A stretch of 58,517 nt of DNA, filler included, from Asterionella formosa (Eukaryota): NCBI GenBank assembly GCA_002256025.1. It is 7 parts of 7 records of this genome, joined end to end, with 100 filler letters (N's around TTAATTAATTAA, not from the genome) between each part and the next. Parts side by side here need not be neighbours in the genome. Positions count along the whole stretch, not along the records: positions 16,774 to 25,053 come from NKIB01012287.1; 6 more parts are not named here. One strand, written 5' to 3'. The notes beneath the pieces are model-generated. The model was not told the origin of the DNA and made no database searches. It worked only from the letters and a program-made list of their open reading frames with translations. Below, piece by piece: positions 17,730-24,299 of the stretch. The stretch's first letter is position 1. Every line of letters begins with the position of its first letter. A program made the translations under genes and the position numbers.

Positions 17730-20700
17730 ATGCCACCAAAGAAGAAGGGCAATGCCAAGGCTCCTGCCAAAAAGGTGACTCAGGAGGATGACGATTGGGA
17801 AGCTTTGCTTCTTGAAACAAACAAGGATGATTCTGCTGGTGGTGCCGACGAAACGGAAAAGACAAAAGATGATGTAGCTCCTACTTCTACTGCTGCTGCT
17901 CCCGTCGATGCGGCAGCTGCCTTTTTGGCAGCTCAAGGACTTTCTTTGGACGACAAGGAAGCAAAGAATAAGAATAAAAAGAAAAAGAAAAAGGGTGCTG
18001 GCGCTGGGGCATCAGAAGATAAAAAGGAAGAACCAAAGGTACGAAGAATTGCCGAGACAGACATGTGCGTGTATATAAAATGAGACAAAAACAAAACAAA
18101 CTCACAGTACCATTTGCCCAATAGATTTCAGCACGAGGTAAATTAGTTGCAGAAAGACTCAAGAAACAGCAAGAAGAAGAGGAACGGATTCGAAAGTTGC
18201 AAGAGGCAGAACAAGCTCGTTTGGATGAACTTCGTCGGATCGAAGAAGAGGAAGAACGGAAATTAGAAGAAGAACGAGAACGAAAGAAGCAAAAAGCCAG
18301 AGAAAAGTTGGAACGACAAAAGAAGGAAGGAACATACATGACCAAGGCTCAAAAACTAAAAGCCAAATTAACACAACAACGATTAGATGCAATGAAGGCC
18401 GCAGGAATGATTCCCACGACGACAGAAGACGAAGAAGCGCCCAAAAGGGAAAAACCAGTTTATAACAAGAAGAAGAAAGGAAAGGATCAACATCATCATG
18501 AAGAATCAACAGAGGAAGTTGTTGTTGTAGCTGAAGAAACAAAAGAACCCGTAGAGGAGGAGGAAGATGATTGGGAGAAGGACGCGGATGACGACGAGGA
18601 CGACGGTGGAAAAGAAAAAGGTGACGTTGCGGAAGAGTCCTCTGGAGACGAATGGGACGCTGATTCACAGGAGGACGACGATGGCGGGAAGTTTGATGAC
18701 CTTGCCGATCGATTGAAAAAGGTGGTAGTTGACGACGACGAAGATGTGGACCTTATTGCAGAAGAAAAGAAGAAGGAACATGAACGTCTGAAAGAATTAG
18801 GGCTCAAGATTGCGGAACGTGAACATCAGGAAGCCTTGAAACGGGCCGAGATGGAAGCCGAGCAAGACGAGCAAGATCGTCAAGTTAGGATGGCAGCTCA
18901 AAAGAAACTAGAAGGAAAGAGAAAGCGAGAAGAACAAGAAAAAGCGAATCTTGAAGCTCGAAAACGAGAAAACTTGCGTTGTCCAATTGTTGTCATCATG
19001 GGACACGTCGATACTGGTAAAACGAAGCTTCTTGATAAGATTCGAAAGACAAATGTCCAAGAAGGAGAAGCTGGAGGTATTACGCAGCAAATTGGTGCCA
19101 CCTATTTCGAGCAGTCAACCCTTCATAAACAGACGGAGAAACTTAACGAAACAGAAAAGTTTAATATTACTGTTCCGGGCATGCTCATCATTGACACACC
19201 TGGTCACGAGTCTTTTGCCAATCTACGTTCTCGTGGATCATCTCTCTGTGATGTTGCCATTCTTGTCATTGATCTCATGCACGGATTGGAGCAACAGACG
19301 ATTGAAAGTTTGAAAATGCTGCTCAAGCGTGGCGTGCCATTTGTTGTGGCCCTGAATAAGATTGATCGATGCTATGCCTGGAAAACATGTAAGGATACGC
19401 CCATCCGTGATGCTCTCAAGGAACAACCCGAAAACACCATTTCGGAGTTTAGAACCCGGGCAACGAATGCCAAAGTGGAACTTGCAGAACAAGGGGTCAA
19501 CTCCAATCTTTACTGGGAGATGGGAGATGATGACTGGGAAAACTCTGACTTTATTCCTCTTGTTCCAACATCCGCTGTTACCGGAGAAGGTGTCCAAGAT
19601 GTACTCATGTTACTTTGCCAAATGGCACAACGAAAGGTCTGGCGACAGCTCATGTGGCACGCCAATCTACAAGCGACTGTTCTTGAAGTCAAGGCTATTG
19701 ATGGTCTTGGTATGACTGTCGATGTTCTCGTTGTCAATGGAACTTTGAAAGAAGGAGATAAAGCTGTCTTTTGTACTTTGGACGGGCCTGTGGTGACAGA
19801 AATCCGGGGTCTCTTGACGCCTCCACCTTCCCGAGAAATGCGTATTAAATCGGAGTATATCCATCACAAGGAAGTTAAGGGAGCCTTAGGTGTGAAGGTG
19901 ATTGGAAACGGACTTGATAAGGTCATGGCTGGTACACCAGTAATGGTGATTGGACCCGACGATGAAGAAGAAGACATCAAGGCCGAGGTCATGTCTGATT
20001 TGTCGACACTTCAAGATAAGCTTAGTACGGATGCAAAAGGTGTCATGGTGCAAGCATCGACCCTCGGAGCTTTGGAGGCCCTCTTGCAGTTCTTGCGCGA
20101 AGATACAAAACCTCCTATCCCAGTGAGTCAGATTGGAATCGGTACTATTCATAAACGAGATGTGACCAAAATCTCGATCATGAACGAAAAAGGCTGCCCA
20201 GAGTATGCAACCATTCTTGCCTTTGATGTGCCCGTTGAGAAAGAAGCTAGAGAGCATGCGGCTCTCATGAATGTTCGCATCTTTACCGCTGACATTATTT
20301 ACCATTTATTTGATCAATTTACAAAGTTTATGGAAGAGCTCGGTGAACGCAGGCGCCAAGAGGCGGCTGAAATTGCCGTCTTTCCCTGCATTTGCAGGGT
20401 TTTGCCTCAACACATCTTCAACCAGAAGGACCCTATTATTGTTGGAATGGAGGTTGTGGAAGGGATCTTGAAGGTCGGTACGCCTCTCTGTGTCCCAGCC
20501 TTAGAGGGCTTACATATTGGTAAGGTTATGTCGATTGAAATGAATGGGAAAGAACAAGACACGGCCAAAAAGGGTGCTTCTGTCGCGGTCAAAATTGTCA
20601 ATGAGGGGAACCCTAATTTGACTTACGGTCGTCAATTCGATGCATCGCACAGTTTGTACTCTACTTTGACTCGGGCATCGATTGATGCCCTCAAAGAAAA

Positions 20701-20773
20701 TTTCAAAGACAAGCTTGACAACGAAGATTGGCGTCTTGTTGTCAAGCTCAAGAAGGTTTACAATATTCTCTAA
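17730..20773 (+). CDS. EIF5B: Eukaryotic translation initiation factor 5B, two exons (17730-18038, 18125-20773), about 985 aa
   Basis: MPPKKKG start and charged N-terminus. 86-bp phase-0 GT..AG intron at 18039-18124 with a CTCAC branch-like site restores the frame. G-domain motifs GHVDTGKT, GEAGGITQQIGAT, DTPGHESF, NKID. C-terminal DWRLVVKLKK. Confidence 0.97.
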
Positions 20774-21008
20774 GGGGGGAGGTAGATATCTAATATAAAC
20801 ATCCCAGTTCTATTGTCGTTGATTTTCCATGCACTCTCATAGTACCTCTGGACGGCTATAACATTGGCAAGTACCACTAGTACTATGTTCTCACGTCTGA
20901 TGCCCGTTACAAAGAAATTCAATTCAGACGAAGACTCACAAAGCTGGTGGTACAATATATTTCCCTTTACTAAACAAGACTATTTCTTCGTTAAAAAAAA
21001 CAAGGAAT

Positions 21009-23823
21009 TCATCGTTTTCGAATGACACTAAGACCATCTCGCATTGGCAAAATCAAAACCTCCACTCGAATATCCTTGACAATCTCACTATTAAACCGAT
21101 GCATCTTATTTGCCAATTGCCGGGCTCGTCGAGTCTTTCGGATTTCATCGTCACTTTTGATTTCTTGCTCATATTGACGTGAAACATTCATACCAGCTTC
21201 GAGAACCAATCCCTTCCACAAAACATTATCAACCACAATAAGTCCACCCTTCTTGAGTAATCGGTCCGTACTAACCAGGGCTTCAACATATTCCACCAGT
21301 CTTGTCTTGTCTGCATCAACAAAGACCATATCAAATGGTGCTGGTTGCAATTCGCCCTTTCCTTGGGCCATTTCTTCAACTGTCGCCAGGGCATCCGTGA
21401 CTTGAATCACATCACATGCCGCCGTCTTATAATGAATTGATTCCCTATTGTCATCGATTGTCGGTAAAACGCCTCCTGCAGCTCGAAGAGCACACGCTGC
21501 TTCGGCACCATGTTCTCCAGTCCCATGCTTGGTCATGATACTCAAATGAGCCATAGCCACTTGCAAGGCCCGAGAATCGCGTTCCAAACTCATCACATAC
21601 GGACCACCCCCGCGACGACTGCCCACCCCAACATAGTTGAGACAATCCCCGACATTGGACGCCCCCTCCAAAAGACACGCAGTAGCGTATCCAGTAAAGG
21701 TCCCCAATTCTAGTATTCGACCTTCTCGTGTCATTGACGCCAATTGGGTCAACCATCGTCCTTGGGCAGCACCTGACACCATGTGTGCACCCGTTGGTAA
21801 CAAAGCACGTGTATTAAATTCCATCTCGCGAAAAAAGGATGGAGGAGGTGTGGAGTGGCCGACACTGTACTCTTCCAAAGATTGAAAGACAACAGGTGGC
21901 TCATCATCATTGGTTGTTCTACTGGACGACCTCCTCTGTGCCAGCATATTTCCATTTTGAATTCGTTGGTGACACGCCTCCGAACATGTTCCCTGAAAGC
22001 TGGATTGACAGTTTTCGCATTGTATAATTCGCTTGTGACAATTAGCATTCCTGCAATTGATCACCAACGATGTTTCGGCTCCACATGTACTGCAACTTGC
22101 CAAGTCATCATCGGTCATGGGTCTACCCAATCGTCCATCAAAGACGAAGTTAGTGCCCTTGAATAGGGGTGTTTCATCTGGGGCTTGTTCCTTGAGAGTT
22201 CGATCGTAGGCAATAATCCCTCCTGCCAATCGTGCAACATTGGTGAACCCAAGTTCTTGTGTCAAGTACGCTCCTACCTTGACGCAACGAATACCACCTG
22301 TACAATAGGTCATAATGGGAGCATCCTTGGGTGTGTCTTTCAGCCGAGCCTTAAGGACATTCCAACTGTCTCGAAAACTCTCAGTTCCAAGTGGTTCGGC
22401 TCCGTCAAAAGACCCAACGTTGGTTTCAAACGAATTTCTACAGTCCAACAAAATGGGCTTAGTAGTCGAAATGTCATCAGTGCATGACCCAATGCCTTGA
22501 TTCTTGAGTTTGGCATGCCACTCGAGTGGTGGCATATCATATCCAGCTTGTTGCCAATCCAGGGCATGGTCCAAGCCATCTGCCACCACTTGAGTTCTGA
22601 CTCGAATGTGCAAGGCTGAAAAGGGAGGAGCCGGTTTTCCACGAACAGGAACCCCTGCGACGGCAAACTCCTCATTGGAAATGGGAATTGGATCCAAATT
22701 AATTCCATTTTCTATATAGTTTCCCACTTGTGGAATTGAAAGGCATGCATCTACAAAGTGTTGCACCACATTGGTTGGGACACTCATTTGTGCATTGATC
22801 CCTTCCCGGGCCACGTAGACTCTTCCCAAGGCACGAAAGGGCGTCCATACTTTTTTCAAAATTGATGCCATGTCATGGGGATCATCTAGTCCATTTGGTG
22901 GAAATGCGTAAAAGGACAACATGGTTTGGCTAGTCGAGTCTAAGNNNNNNNNNNNNNNNNNNNNNNNNNNNNNNNNNNNNNNNNNNNNNNNNNNNNNNNN
23001 NNNNNNNNNNNNNNNNNNNNNNNNNNNNNNNNNNNNNNNNNNNNNNNNNNNNNNNNNNNNNNNNNNNNNNNNNNNNNNNNNNNNNNNNNNNNNNNNNNNN
23101 NNNNNNNNNNNNNNNNNNNNNNNNNNNNNNNNNNNNNNNNNNNNNNNNNNNNNNNNNNNNNNNNNNNNNNNNNNNNNNNNNNNNNNNNNNNNNNNNNNNN
23201 NNNNNNNNNNNNNNNNNNNNNNNNNNNNNNNNNNNNNNNNNNNNNNNNNNNNNNNNNNNNNNNNNNNNNNNNNNNNNNNNNNNNNNNNNNNNNNNNNNNN
23301 NNNNNNNNNNNNNNNNNNNNNNNNNNNNNNNNNNNNNNNNNNNNNNNNNNNNNNNNNNNNNNNNNNNNNNNNNNNNNNNNNNNNNNNNNNNNNNNNNNNN
23401 NNNNNNNNNNNNNNNNNNNNNNNNNNNNNNNNNNNNNNNNNNNNNNNNNNNNNAACGCAATTCGTTTCGTAATTCTTCACAAACGGATACTTTAATGGCA
23501 TACAAAGCAGTTGCGTCGTCAGAATTATTGAAACGTTGCTTCCATTGTAAATTCTTTTCGTGAGCTTCTTGCAATACTTTGTGTCTTGCTTCTTTCTGAG
23601 CGCGAGAAATGGCGAGACGTTCTTCGACAAGGTCTTTATTGGAGGGTATCGAACTCATCGACATGGTGGTGAAGTATCGTTGAGCGACGGTTCTTCGTCT
23701 GATGGTTATCATAGGAATCAGGCCCCGTGATTGTGATGGGATGAAGGCAAGGCGCATCAACAGAAACAAAGATAGGTAGGAGGAACAAGCGCGAAGTAGG
23801 AGACCACGAAAAACTGATGACAT
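21009..23823 (-). CDS. Fusion protein: TrhO/UPF0176-type rhodanese (tRNA U34 hydroxylase family) plus class-I SAM O-methyltransferase (CCoAOMT/TrmR family), with organelle-type presequence; interrupted by N-gap 22945-23453
   Basis: TrhO motifs: LSFYAF, GRVYVAREGINAQ, LDCRNSFE..VGSF.GA, YCTGGIRC, L.GGIIAY, F.G.NFVFDGR, Cys-rich tail. In the same frame: QGRWL, RILELGTFTGYA, FDMVFVDADK, GGLIVVDNVLWKG, LPMRDGL. The N-terminal segment beyond the gap (ATG 23823) is assumed to be the same gene. Confidence 0.88.
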
Positions 23824-24299
23824 TTCGGAGCCAAGAGCAGTCTGTTGTTCCGGCCAATAAAACAAATGGGTGATGTTTTGGAGGAGCGTTGCTAGTAAAT
23901 GTGTGTCCGCTACTAGAATCCCATTTCACGAAAGGAAATATTGAATGGTTTGCTTGTCTTTTTAATGTAATCATGACGGATCGGTTGACATTTCATGATT
24001 TGATCCCACCATAGGCTGCTTTTTAGTACATGTATTGTATAGCAAGTACCACTATCTTCTACGCATATTGTTGTGTCCATTCATTTCTTTAAAATTGGGA
24101 GTACTAAGAAATGGCAGGGAAAGCAACCACGCACACCACAGACGAGCGAGCCAATGTTCGCATTTTTCACTTGCGTGCCTGTGCGTGTCTTCCTATTCGA
24201 ATACCAGGGCTGGTTGTTCGTGGTACCAGGCACCTGGTACTAGTAAATTGCAGACTACCGGTACATTCGAATACCTGTACTTGTCTACCTACCGTTAAT

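What the first reader, a model, noticed from the sequence alone, without database searches (positions are those of the whole stretch)
21009..23823. TrhO hydroxylase fused to an O-methyltransferase: candidate single-protein 5-methoxyuridine (mo5U34) synthase for an algal organelle
Seen: one uninterrupted frame (22944 to 21009, no gap between the domains) joins a TrhO/YceA-type module (N-domain GRVYVAREGINA, rhodanese CTGGIRC at 22284-22304, Cys-rich tail) to a CCoAOMT/Methyltransf_3 domain (~21885-21009). Beyond the N-gap is a hydrophobic leader plus Arg/Ser/Thr-rich transit-like peptide. Established: bacterial TrhO makes 5-hydroxyuridine at tRNA position 34, and Bacillus TrmR (YrrM), an O-methyltransferase of this family encoded beside the TrhP hydroxylase genes, converts ho5U to mo5U. 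Inference: the fusion couples these two consecutive steps and installs mo5U34 on plastid or mitochondrial tRNAs to extend four-codon-box decoding. I know of no description of this fusion or of mo5U in diatom organelles. The motif reads CTGGIRCVK rather than the usual CTGGIRCEK, and the methyltransferase has two insertions.
Basis: partly seen in the sequence, partly recalled or inferred. Interest (0 to 1): 0.88.

Follow-up and report, generated by a model that had tools for sequence, protein, structure and literature searches.

The report
Diatom tRNA hydroxylase-methyltransferase fusion gene
A diatom nuclear gene joins a tRNA-uridine hydroxylase to an O-methyltransferase and probably makes 5-methoxyuridine on chloroplast tRNAs, but the same fusion was already mentioned in print in 2019 and is common in algae of the red lineage.

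Summary
Window 22943..21009 (-) is one open frame carrying UPF0176_N, Rhodanese, Rhodanese_C and Methyltransf_3. It continues upstream across a 509-N gap to an ATG at 23823. Contigs from RNA libraries of three studies cover leader, gap, hydroxylase and methyltransferase colinearly, without introns.

The novelty claim fails. Sakai et al. 2019 (PMC6599085) state that yceA/trhO is fused to trmR in Phaeodactylum and Phytophthora, and used this to find TrhO. The fusion is also present in diatoms, other ochrophytes, Vitrella, red algae, Paulinella and the amoebozoan Protostelium.

New here:
- The gap hides a conserved N-terminal basic helix plus a PB1-like beta-grasp domain.
- The leader looks like a diatom plastid presequence.
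- The methyltransferase is overall a generic CCoAOMT-like enzyme, not close to TrmR. It does share TrmR's Arg-rich tRNA-binding segment, which stand-alone bacterial relatives lack.

Best reading (0.55): a plastid-targeted U34 to ho5U34 to mo5U34 synthase. It is a candidate for the still unidentified U34 modification of plastid tRNAs. Nothing biochemical is shown.

The parts
23824..23953 (-). 5' untranslated region, with a 3-codon upstream ORF (ATG GGA TTC TAG, 23924..23913)
   Evidence: RNA-library contigs X1 record 2 and X6 record 13 end at 23953 and 23954. The sequence was read.
23659..23823 (-). 55-aa leader: a hydrophobic signal-peptide-like stretch (SSYLSLFLLMRLA) followed by F (LA|F), then a Ser/Thr/Arg-rich transit-like part
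   Evidence: Translation. Highest 9-residue hydropathy 2.30, with [ASGC]F at residues 26-27. The same pattern is seen in 17 of 39 leaders examined, against 6.0 expected from shuffles.
23454..23658 (-). Start of the N-terminal domain: a long basic helix and the first strands of a PB1-like beta-grasp domain. The rest lies in the gap.
   Evidence: Identical to P0002 residues 1-68. Model of P0002 1-196: pLDDT 89.2, pTM 0.78. PB1 domains are the top structural matches: 1wmh_B Z 10.4, rmsd 2.2 over 82 residues. No Pfam family in this region in the 4 full-length orthologues scanned.
22945..23453 (.). Assembly gap of 509 N that hides 382 nt of coding sequence (the rest of the beta-grasp domain and a poly-proline linker); no intron
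   Evidence: All 4 laid runs hold a contig that skips the 509 N with 382 letters between. P0002 residues 69-196 fill it.
22587..22922 (-). UPF0176_N (acylphosphatase-like) domain of the TrhO module; E. coli K112 is Arg here (HIRVR)
   Evidence: Pfam; alignment with E. coli TrhO.
22206..22472 (-). Rhodanese domain with the active-site loop CTGGIRC (22304..22284)
   Evidence: Pfam. C200, T201, G202, G203, I204, R205 and C206 (E. coli numbering) are invariant in a 6-sequence alignment.
21969..22160 (-). Rhodanese_C Cys-rich tail (8 Cys, 2 His), probably two zinc sites
   Evidence: Pfam. C267, C270, C292 and C295 are invariant. E. coli TrhO binds about 2 Zn (preprint 10.1101/2025.11.10.687516, passages seen).
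21882..21968 (-). Helix and low-confidence linker between the two modules
   Evidence: pLDDT blocks of 68 and 52 for residues 331-350; whole-model pTM 0.57 with mean pLDDT 91.9.
21012..21881 (-). Class I cation-dependent-type O-methyltransferase domain (Methyltransf_3) with three inserted stretches. SAM motif LELGTFTGY; DADK and DN metal/catalytic motifs.
21117..21140 (-). Arg-rich segment RKTRRARQ, aligned with TrmR K177-R181 (the tRNA-binding loop of TrmR)
   Evidence: HMMER alignment to 5zw3 residues 175-215. The R178-equivalent position is basic in 149 of 175 fused proteins, against 2 of 15 bacterial stand-alone relatives. Role of R178 and R181: Ryu et al. 2018.
20896..21011 (-). Stop codon (21011..21009) and 3' untranslated region
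   Evidence: X1 record 2 ends at 20896; sequence.

Best explanation
An intronless diatom nuclear gene encodes an 895-aa preprotein (55-aa leader plus the 840 aa of P0002).

Inferred route: a signal peptide with an F at the predicted cleavage site, followed by a transit-like peptide, takes the protein into the plastid stroma.

The mature protein has three parts:
(i) a basic helix plus a PB1-like beta-grasp domain of unknown role (tRNA recruitment or self-association are guesses);
(ii) a complete TrhO module that uses O2 to hydroxylate C5 of wobble uridine 34, giving ho5U34;
(iii) a flexibly tethered SAM-dependent O-methyltransferase that methylates the new 5-hydroxyl, giving mo5U34.

Likely substrates are the single U34 isoacceptors of four-codon boxes: Ala-UGC, Pro-UGG, Ser-UGA, Thr-UGU and Val-UAC. 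These are the bacterial xo5U substrate set. The modification would help one tRNA read all four codons.

Shown here: the architecture, conserved catalytic residues, RNA contigs spanning the whole gene, and conservation. Inferred: both activities, the substrate and the compartment.
For: Architecture and catalytic residues:
- Four Pfam domains in one frame.
- The active-site loop C200-C206 is invariant, K112 is conservatively Arg, and the Zn-type cysteines are kept.
- The best solved relatives of the TrhO part are B. subtilis TrhO bound to tRNA-Ala (9j5o: E 3.1e-22 by sequence; Foldseek E 1.7e-23, TMt 0.82) and 4f67.
- The methyltransferase keeps the SAM motif and the DADK/DN motifs.

tRNA-directed features of the methyltransferase:
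- Its Arg-rich helix aligns with TrmR K177-R181.
- The R178-equivalent is basic in 149 of 175 fusions, against 2 of 15 stand-alone bacterial relatives.

Expression:
- One RNA-library contig of 2,933 nt (X1) covers 23953..20896 colinearly. X6 and X4 do likewise. Three studies are involved.

Conservation of the fusion:
- 119 of 120 listed hits and 120 of 120 carry both kinds of domain.
- 84 of 147 cluster representatives match both parts.

Literature:
- The fusion was itself the published Rosetta-stone clue for TrhO.
- TrhO makes ho5U34 and TrmR makes mo5U34.

Plastid targeting:
- The window's leader has a hydrophobic stretch followed by LA|F. 17 of 39 leaders show this pattern against 6.0 expected. 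Seminavis P0022 reads ...SLPSVAS|FQP.
- Named carriers are mostly red algae and algae with red-derived plastids.
- The algal sequences group together at SH-aLRT 93 in a quick tree.

Open question it could answer:
- Plastid tRNAs Pro, Ala, Val (and perhaps Ser, Thr) carry an unidentified U34 modification (review PMC8877259, passages seen).
Against: - No activity, localisation or nucleoside data exist for any eukaryotic member.
- The methyltransferase is overall nearer to small-molecule catechol-type OMTs than to TrmR. 5zw3 ranks 34th of 44 with 33.7 bits, and TrmR is absent from the Foldseek ranks 1-49 shown.
- Ryu et al. found TrmR orthologues only in Firmicutes. TrmR R86 and R90 could not be tested.
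- The TrhO part scores 148.3 bits, below NCBIfam's equivalog cut-off of 170.
- The fusion also occurs in non-photosynthetic Protostelium and Phytophthora, so it is not plastid-specific.
- 22 of 39 leaders lack the plastid-like pattern. That test is a home-made proxy, not ASAFind.
- The review says xo5U derivatives were not found in Chlamydomonas by mass spectrometry.
- Gene neighbourhood support in bacteria is weak: 1 of 19 OMT loci and 1 of 29 alphaproteobacterial TrhO loci pair the two genes.
- pTM 0.57 gives no fixed arrangement of the two active sites.
Confidence: 0.55

Rival explanations
1. Same chemistry (U34 to ho5U to mo5U), but the substrates are mitochondrial tRNAs, or the protein is dual-targeted to mitochondria and plastid.
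For: The fusion exists in organisms without plastids: Phytophthora and Protostelium. 22 of 39 leaders lack the hydrophobic stretch plus [ASGC]F pattern. Several of those are Arg/Ser-rich without a hydrophobic core, for example P0048 and P0027.
Against: The window's own leader has a clear hydrophobic stretch followed by LA|F, the established mark of diatom plastid presequences. The algal sequences group apart from Protostelium. The review states that mitochondria read four-codon boxes with unmodified U34. Many leaderless models may simply be truncated gene calls.
Confidence: 0.2
2. The methyltransferase domain does not act on tRNA. It is a catechol or other small-molecule O-methyltransferase (or acts on another RNA or protein hydroxyl) that happens to be fused to TrhO, whose product stays ho5U.
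For: The best sequence and fold matches are SynOMT, the Leptospira OMT, SafC, PaMTH1, COMTD1 and CCoAOMTs. The protein atlas neighbours are generic PF01596 clusters. The metal-binding DADK/DN motifs typical of catechol OMTs are kept.
Against: The fusion is kept across red algae, ochrophytes, Vitrella and an amoebozoan, which argues for a coupled function. An Arg-rich segment lies at the TrmR tRNA-binding position and is absent from stand-alone relatives. TrmR itself has the same fold and was long annotated as a caffeoyl-CoA-type OMT.
Confidence: 0.12
3. The rhodanese module works as a sulfurtransferase (as the automatic names say) and not as a hydroxylase. The beta-grasp domain would act as a sulfur-carrier-like partner.
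For: JGI names it 'predicted sulfurtransferase'. MoaD-type beta-grasp proteins appear among the fold matches of the N-domain at Z 6.6-7.8.
Against: The whole three-part TrhO architecture and every residue tested in E. coli TrhO are kept. The N-domain is internal and has no free C-terminal Gly-Gly; it ends in a poly-proline linker. PB1 domains score higher, at Z up to 10.4.
Confidence: 0.05

Closest known systems
yceA(trhO)-trmR fusion of Phaeodactylum tricornutum and Phytophthora spp., noted by Sakai et al. 2019 (PMC6599085)
   Same: Same two-module architecture. The window's protein is 59-74% identical to the fusions of other diatom-like and named diatom sequences and is almost certainly the orthologue.
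   Different: The paper gives one sentence, calling the organisms 'bacterial species'. It does not treat targeting, the N-terminal domain, the wider distribution or the function in eukaryotes.
Bacterial TrhO (E. coli YceA; B. subtilis TrhO, PDB 9j5o; Legionella lpg2838, PDB 4f67)
   Same: UPF0176_N, rhodanese and a Cys-rich tail. CTGGIRC loop invariant. 35% identity to E. coli TrhO in the alignment. Foldseek TMt 0.82 to 9j5o.
   Different: K112 is Arg. Val instead of Glu follows the loop. The protein is fused at both ends, nuclear-encoded with a leader, and scores below NCBIfam's equivalog cut-off (148.3 against 170).
B. subtilis TrmR/YrrM (PDB 5zw3, 5zw4), the ho5U34 O-methyltransferase
   Same: PF01596 fold. 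Arg-rich segment before the ...FN helix, aligned with TrmR K177-R181. Works downstream of a U34 hydroxylase.
   Different: Only 33.7 bits, rank 34 of 44. Three insertions. R181 is Gln in the window (Lys in most orthologues). R86 and R90 untested. TrmR orthologues were reported only in Firmicutes.
Cation-dependent class I O-methyltransferases (SynOMT 3cbg, Leptospira OMT 2hnk, SafC, PaMTH1, COMTD1, CCoAOMT)
   Same: Best overall sequence and fold matches. SAM motif and DADK/DN motifs shared.
   Different: Those align only from the ...FN helix onward and lack the Arg-rich segment. They are stand-alone and their known substrates are small catechols.
PB1 domains (PKC-iota/Par6, NBR1, MEKK3/MEK5, p62)
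   Same: Beta-grasp fold over the whole PB1 length: Z 10.4-9.2, rmsd 2.2-2.8 for the best rows.
   Different: No sequence-family match. Foldseek E is only 0.018. It is preceded by a 38-residue basic helix, sits inside a probable organellar tRNA enzyme, and no partner is known.

Membership tests
TrhO (tRNA uridine-34 hydroxylase, UPF0176/YceA) | Three-part architecture: UPF0176_N, rhodanese, Rhodanese_C | tested here: met
   All three Pfam families score above their cut-offs.
TrhO (tRNA uridine-34 hydroxylase, UPF0176/YceA) | Active-site loop CXGGXR with C200, T201, G203 and R205, plus basic K112 (residues needed in E. coli) | tested here: met
   C200-C206 are invariant; K112 is replaced by Arg. 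The residue list comes from passages of PMC6599085 and PMC10135228.
TrhO (tRNA uridine-34 hydroxylase, UPF0176/YceA) | Score above NCBIfam's equivalog cut-off (NF001133, 170 bits) | tested here: not met
   148.3 bits in two stretches. The model is built for bacterial proteins.
TrhO (tRNA uridine-34 hydroxylase, UPF0176/YceA) | O2-dependent formation of ho5U34 on tRNA | not testable with these tools
   Needs an enzyme assay or nucleoside mass spectrometry.
TrmR (tRNA ho5U34 O-methyltransferase) | PF01596 Rossmann-type fold with a SAM-binding motif | tested here: met
   Methyltransf_3 E 1.8e-27. LELGTFTGY and DADK/DN are conserved. Model pLDDT mostly above 90.
TrmR (tRNA ho5U34 O-methyltransferase) | Arg-178 (with R181) in the tRNA-binding loop, conserved in TrmR orthologues and missing in other PF01596 members (Ryu et al. 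2018) | tested here: met
   Window RKTRRARQ aligns with TrmR 175-EPKRRRRL. R178 aligns with Arg and R181 with Gln (this is a weak local alignment of 11.1 bits, anchored on the gap-free FN...DG motif). The R178-equivalent is basic in 149 of 175 fusions.
TrmR (tRNA ho5U34 O-methyltransferase) | Arg-86 and Arg-90 | tested here: inconclusive
   No TrmR sequence could be brought into an alignment of this region (0 hits; 4 hits, none of them TrmR).
TrmR (tRNA ho5U34 O-methyltransferase) | Closer to B. subtilis TrmR than to other PF01596 enzymes (orthologue level, above about 40% identity) | tested here: not met
   5zw3 at 33.7 bits is rank 34 of 44 and is not among the Foldseek ranks 1-49 shown.
TrmR (tRNA ho5U34 O-methyltransferase) | SAM-dependent methylation of ho5U34 | not testable with these tools
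   Needs an assay.
Diatom plastid-targeted proteins (bipartite presequence, ASAFAP-type) | N-terminal signal peptide with Phe at +1 of the cleavage site, followed by a transit-like peptide | tested here: inconclusive
   A home-made proxy is met by the window's leader (hydropathy 2.30, LA|F) and by 17 of 39 leaders against 6.0 expected. SignalP, ASAFind and HECTAR were not available.
PB1 domain | Beta-grasp fold of PB1 type | tested here: inconclusive
   Z 10.4, rmsd 2.2, 82 of 82 residues, but Foldseek E 0.018 and no Pfam hit. The acidic OPCA and basic-lysine motifs were not examined.

The most novel reading that the evidence does not exclude
This fusion is the enzyme behind the long-unidentified wobble-uridine modification of plastid four-codon-box tRNAs, at least in red-lineage plastids, and the product is mo5U34. 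That would be the first xo5U-type wobble modification shown in a eukaryote. It would be made by an O2-dependent hydroxylase inside an oxygen-evolving organelle. The conserved basic helix plus PB1-like beta-grasp domain, so far undescribed in the papers and libraries searched here, would serve as a tRNA-recruitment or self-association module.
Probability: 0.35. Interest if true: 0.7.

Novelty: new member of a known kind. Interest (0 to 1): 0.45.

Why it matters
Plastids decode with about two dozen tRNAs. A 2022 review (PMC8877259) still lists the U34 modification of plastid tRNA-Pro, -Ala and -Val (perhaps also Ser and Thr) as chemically unidentified. No xo5U-type modification has been shown in any eukaryote, although Sakai et al. 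predicted one.

A plastid-directed TrhO-methyltransferase fusion that is conserved from red algae to diatoms gives a concrete candidate that can be knocked out. The question becomes testable by mass spectrometry in a tractable diatom.

The value is limited because the fusion is already in print, the idea follows directly from bacterial work, and nothing biochemical is known. What this analysis adds is the N-terminal beta-grasp domain, the targeting signal, the TrmR-like Arg-rich segment and the taxonomic range.

Tried and rejected
- Whole genome of the window: none is held. Paralogues, cmoA/cmoB and the organellar tRNA sets could therefore not be examined.
- Earlier findings of this scan: nothing by place or by sequence.
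- NCBIfam: no model hits the methyltransferase part at E<=0.01.
- Protein atlas for the methyltransferase part: only generic PF01596 clusters, not discriminating.
- Bacterial gene neighbourhood as support:
  - Of 19 bacterial OMT loci found through two peptide patterns, only the Pelagibacteraceae locus L019 has TrhO next to the OMT.
  - Of 29 alphaproteobacterial TrhO loci with 1.5-kb flanks, only L031 has an OMT beside it. L051 was dropped from this set because it comes from the unpublished genome G041.
  - The TrhO tally of 48 of 151 genomes includes G041; without it the tally is 47 of 150.
  - Adjacency is rare, so I do not lean on it.
- TrmR R86 and R90: two sub-stretch searches of the PDB sequences did not bring up TrmR.
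- Foldseek of the N-domain: no match at E<=0.001.
- Tree: the careful search did not finish in the time allowed. Only the quick tree is reported, and long branches (SAR11, Protostelium, Paulinella, Pelagomonas) are unreliable.
- Literature searches were badly framed (generic terms swamped the list) and are uninformative.
- RNA laying: the N gap itself has no cover by construction. The X3 contigs break at 21941-21973 beside variant 60-mers, which I read as an assembly break at polymorphic sites and not as a transcript boundary.
- No complex prediction was run.
Full report
THE OBSERVATION

On the minus strand, window 22943..21009 is an uninterrupted frame of 644 codons plus a stop.

Pfam finds four families in this frame:
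- UPF0176_N, residues 8-119
- Rhodanese, residues 158-246
- Rhodanese_C, residues 262-325
- Methyltransf_3, E 1.8e-27, in two stretches

The loop CTGGIRC is encoded at 22304..22284. The motif GRVYVAREGINA, the Cys-rich tail and the run of N (22945..23453, 509 bases) are as described. Beyond the gap the same strand reads MSSVFRGLLLRACSSYLSLFLLMRLAFIPSQSRG... from an ATG at 23823.

IS IT ONE GENE AND ONE RNA?

A 99%-identical 840-aa protein from a public collection (P0002) runs from MSSIPSNK, just after the leader, through the gap to the last residue.

Sixteen of the 18 listed public runs hold part of the stretch, and six hold half or more of its sampled words. I laid four of them, from three studies:
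- X1 has a contig of 2,933 nt that lies colinearly on 23953..23454 and 22944..20896, with 382 letters in place of the 509 N.
- X6 (2,706 nt) and X4 (6,354 nt, which also covers the neighbours) behave the same way.
- X3 is broken at 21941-21973, beside polymorphic 60-mers.

No other joint was reported, so there is no intron and no split between the modules. The 382 hidden bases equal residues 69-196 of P0002.

These are contigs of RNA libraries, which cannot prove transcription on their own. However, two independent contigs end at 23953/23954, one ends at 20896, and the contig of the neighbouring gene is separate. That is what a 2.9-kb mRNA would give.

The full product is therefore 895 aa: a 55-aa leader plus 840 aa.

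IS THE FUSION NEW? NO.

Sakai et al. [quoted passage not shown] They used this as one of the clues that identified TrhO. They also note that trhO homologues are widespread in eukaryotes and that this suggests an xo5U-type modification there. JGI's automatic names already read 'predicted sulfurtransferase/predicted O-methyltransferase YrrM'.

I found no paper that takes the eukaryotic fusion further:
- TrmR/TrhO/diatom: 18 papers hold at least two of the three terms. None of the 14 listed pairs 'diatom' with TrhO, and the three that pair it with a single 'TrmR' have unrelated titles.
- '5-methoxyuridine' with 'plastid': 1 paper, unrelated by its title.
- '5-methoxyuridine' with 'chloroplast': 11 papers, none on plastid mo5U by title.
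- 'TrhO' with 'chloroplast': 5 papers (4 listed), all plant tRNA surveys, reviews or other topics by title.

For these searches I saw the listings only.

HOW WIDE IS IT?

With the window's protein, 835 proteins score E<=0.001 among the 8000 candidates scored. Of the 120 listed, 119 carry PF01596 together with TrhO-type families, and 103 also carry UPF0176_N; the other 17 are N-terminally short records.

In the library of 50%-identity representatives, 5,530 proteins score E<=0.001. Of the 147 new representatives listed, 84 match both modules, 58 match TrhO only and 5 match the methyltransferase only.

A profile of 32 non-diatom fusions finds 548 proteins at E<=1e-20, and all 120 listed carry PF01596 and PF17773.

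Named carriers:
- many diatoms
- Triparma, Pelagomonas, Chattonella, Mallomonas, an ochromonad and Phaeothamnion
- the chromerid Vitrella
- six red algal genera
- Paulinella micropora
- the amoebozoan Protostelium nocturnum

A quick maximum-likelihood tree of 28 rows puts the algal sequences together (SH-aLRT 93), apart from Protostelium, E. coli and a fungal TrhO, and puts diatoms with Triparma (support 100). The careful search did not finish and several branches are long.

The distribution is mostly, but not only, that of red plastids.

THE TrhO MODULE

Aligned with E. coli TrhO, taken from the K-12 record:
- C200, T201, G202, G203, I204, R205 and C206 are invariant.
- K112 is Arg.
- Four cysteines of the tail are invariant.

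The residues shown to matter in E. coli are K112, C200, T201, G203 and R205 (passages). E. coli TrhO binds about two zinc ions (preprint, passages), which fits the 8 Cys and 2 His of the tail.

The best solved relative is B. subtilis TrhO bound to tRNA-Ala (9j5o). The Val after the loop is the norm in the fused forms: 185 of 202. The only failed test is NCBIfam's bacterial equivalog cut-off, 148.3 against 170 bits.

THE METHYLTRANSFERASE MODULE

It is a well-folded class I O-methyltransferase (pLDDT mostly above 90) with the SAM motif and the DADK/DN motifs.

Against a 216-aa bacterial relative it has three insertions:
- about 20 residues after motif I
- about 45-50 residues before FDMVFVDADK
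- about 30 residues before MHRFN

Overall it is not TrmR-like. The cyanobacterial SynOMT (3cbg) and the Leptospira OMT (2hnk) lead at about 67 bits. TrmR (5zw3) is 34th of 44 at 33.7 bits and is absent from the Foldseek ranks 1-49 shown.

Ryu et al. [quoted passage not shown]

When only the C-terminal 74 residues are searched, TrmR 175-EPKRRRRLVAKIDEYN aligns without gaps to the window's KTRRARQLANKMHRFN. The four higher-scoring catechol-type enzymes align only from the FN helix onward.

Using the gap-free FN...DG anchor:
- The R178-equivalent is basic in 149 of 175 fused proteins, and in 52 of 76 in the subset without the diatom-type motifs.
- The equivalents of K177, R180 and R181 are basic in 135, 140 and 139 of 175.
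- Among 15 stand-alone bacterial relatives, the R178-equivalent is basic in 2, and most carry Asp at the R180 position.

The 175 are not independent, because diatoms dominate, and the alignment to TrmR is weak (11.1 bits). I read this as moderate evidence that the fused domain has a TrmR-like RNA-binding helix. R86 and R90 could not be tested.

WHAT THE GAP HIDES

No Pfam family matches the first 200 residues or so of four full-length orthologues.

Folded with 51 orthologues, P0002 1-196 gives pLDDT 89.2 and pTM 0.78: a 38-residue helix rich in Arg and Lys, followed by an alpha/beta domain.

An all-against-representatives structural search puts PB1 domains on top: 1wmh_B Z 10.4, rmsd 2.2 over 82 of 82 residues, with nine chains at Z>=8. 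MoaD-type and ubiquitin-like proteins fall at Z 6-8. Foldseek alone gives nothing below E 0.018.

The pattern V.V....R..L.L..R..R.RVF of this domain persists in the consensus of 60 diverse fusions, and red algal sequences show it too. Protostelium lacks the domain.

The function of this domain is unknown. tRNA recruitment or self-association are guesses.

WHERE DOES THE PROTEIN GO?

By established knowledge of diatom plastid import (recalled, not from a call), presequences are a signal peptide whose cleavage site is followed by Phe, then a transit-like peptide.

The window's leader has a hydrophobic stretch (hydropathy 2.30) and LA|F at residues 26-27, followed by a Ser/Thr/Arg-rich stretch.

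With a home-made proxy, 17 of 39 leaders show a hydrophobic stretch followed by [ASGC]F, against 6.0 expected from shuffles. The 39 are the leaders of 25 residues or more that start with Met, the window's included; 13 of the 52 rows were skipped as too short. Seminavis is a textbook case...SLPSVAS|FQP. Many models that fail look 5'-truncated.

This favours the plastid. It does not exclude mitochondria or dual targeting, and heterotrophs carry the fusion too.

HOW IT PROBABLY WORKS

After import, the TrhO module hydroxylates U34 with O2. The tethered methyltransferase then converts ho5U34 to mo5U34 with SAM.

The whole-protein model is confident for each module (mean pLDDT 91.9) but not for their mutual arrangement: pTM 0.57, with the linker at pLDDT 52-68. 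So the two modules are flexibly joined, with no fixed channel between the active sites.

The expected substrates are the U34 tRNAs of four-codon boxes with a purine at position 35, the bacterial xo5U set. That set coincides with the plastid tRNAs (Pro, Ala, Val, perhaps Ser and Thr) whose U34 modification a 2022 review calls unidentified. The same review says xo5U was not found in Chlamydomonas.

Evidence from bacterial gene order is thin. A Pelagibacteraceae genome has the OMT directly followed by TrhO (L019 5791..7335). But only 1 of 19 OMT loci and 1 of 29 alphaproteobacterial TrhO loci show such pairing.

VERDICT

This is a real, expressed, conserved gene.

It is a new member of a known, uncharacterised kind. 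Three details were not found in the papers and libraries searched here: the beta-grasp N-domain, the plastid-type leader and the TrmR-like Arg-rich helix. It is also a concrete route to an open question about plastid wobble uridines.

Noticed in passing
window 22945..23453: The assembly gap is written as 509 N, but contigs from RNA libraries in all four laid runs have 382 letters there. The gap is over-sized by 127 bases and hides 128 codons of this gene.
   Followed up: yes
window 23454..23658 and the gap (P0002 residues 1-196): A conserved N-terminal module with no Pfam family: a 38-residue basic helix plus a PB1-like beta-grasp domain (Z 10.4 to 1wmh_B). It is shared by diatom, other ochrophyte and red algal fusions and is absent from Protostelium.
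   Followed up: partly
window 18197..20773 (+): Convergent neighbour: an eIF5B/IF2-type translation GTPase (GTP_EFTU, IF-2, GTP_EFTU_D4) with an acidic and basic low-complexity N-terminus. Its stop lies 123 bases from the 3' end of the fusion gene's RNA contig.
   Followed up: partly
window 23913..23924 (-): A three-codon upstream ORF (ATG GGA TTC TAG) sits in the 5' leader of the RNA contigs, 100 bases before the main ATG.
   Followed up: no
L019 5791..7335: In a Pelagibacteraceae MAG, a 216-aa PF01596 O-methyltransferase is followed directly, with no spacer, by a 297-aa TrhO, between gatB and a MATE-like membrane protein. This is a bacterial split counterpart of the fusion. A second, divergent pairing is in L031.
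   Followed up: partly
window 20861..23789: Sixteen positions differ between the window and one or more RNA-library contigs. P0002 differs from the window's translation at four residues (N/D, F/Y, A/V, I/N). I read this as strain or allelic variation, not editing.
   Followed up: no
P0239 (Protostelium nocturnum), P0177 (Paulinella micropora): TrhO-methyltransferase fusions also occur in a non-photosynthetic amoebozoan and in Paulinella. In the quick tree Paulinella joins Pelagomonas on long branches. Contamination or gene transfer was not examined.
   Followed up: no
P0206, P0228 (Guillardia theta); P0264 (Cokeromyces); P0185 (Chrysoparadoxa): The nearest TrhO-only eukaryotic records include a cryptophyte, a fungus and another ochrophyte. 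Some may be truncated gene models of fusions.
   Followed up: no
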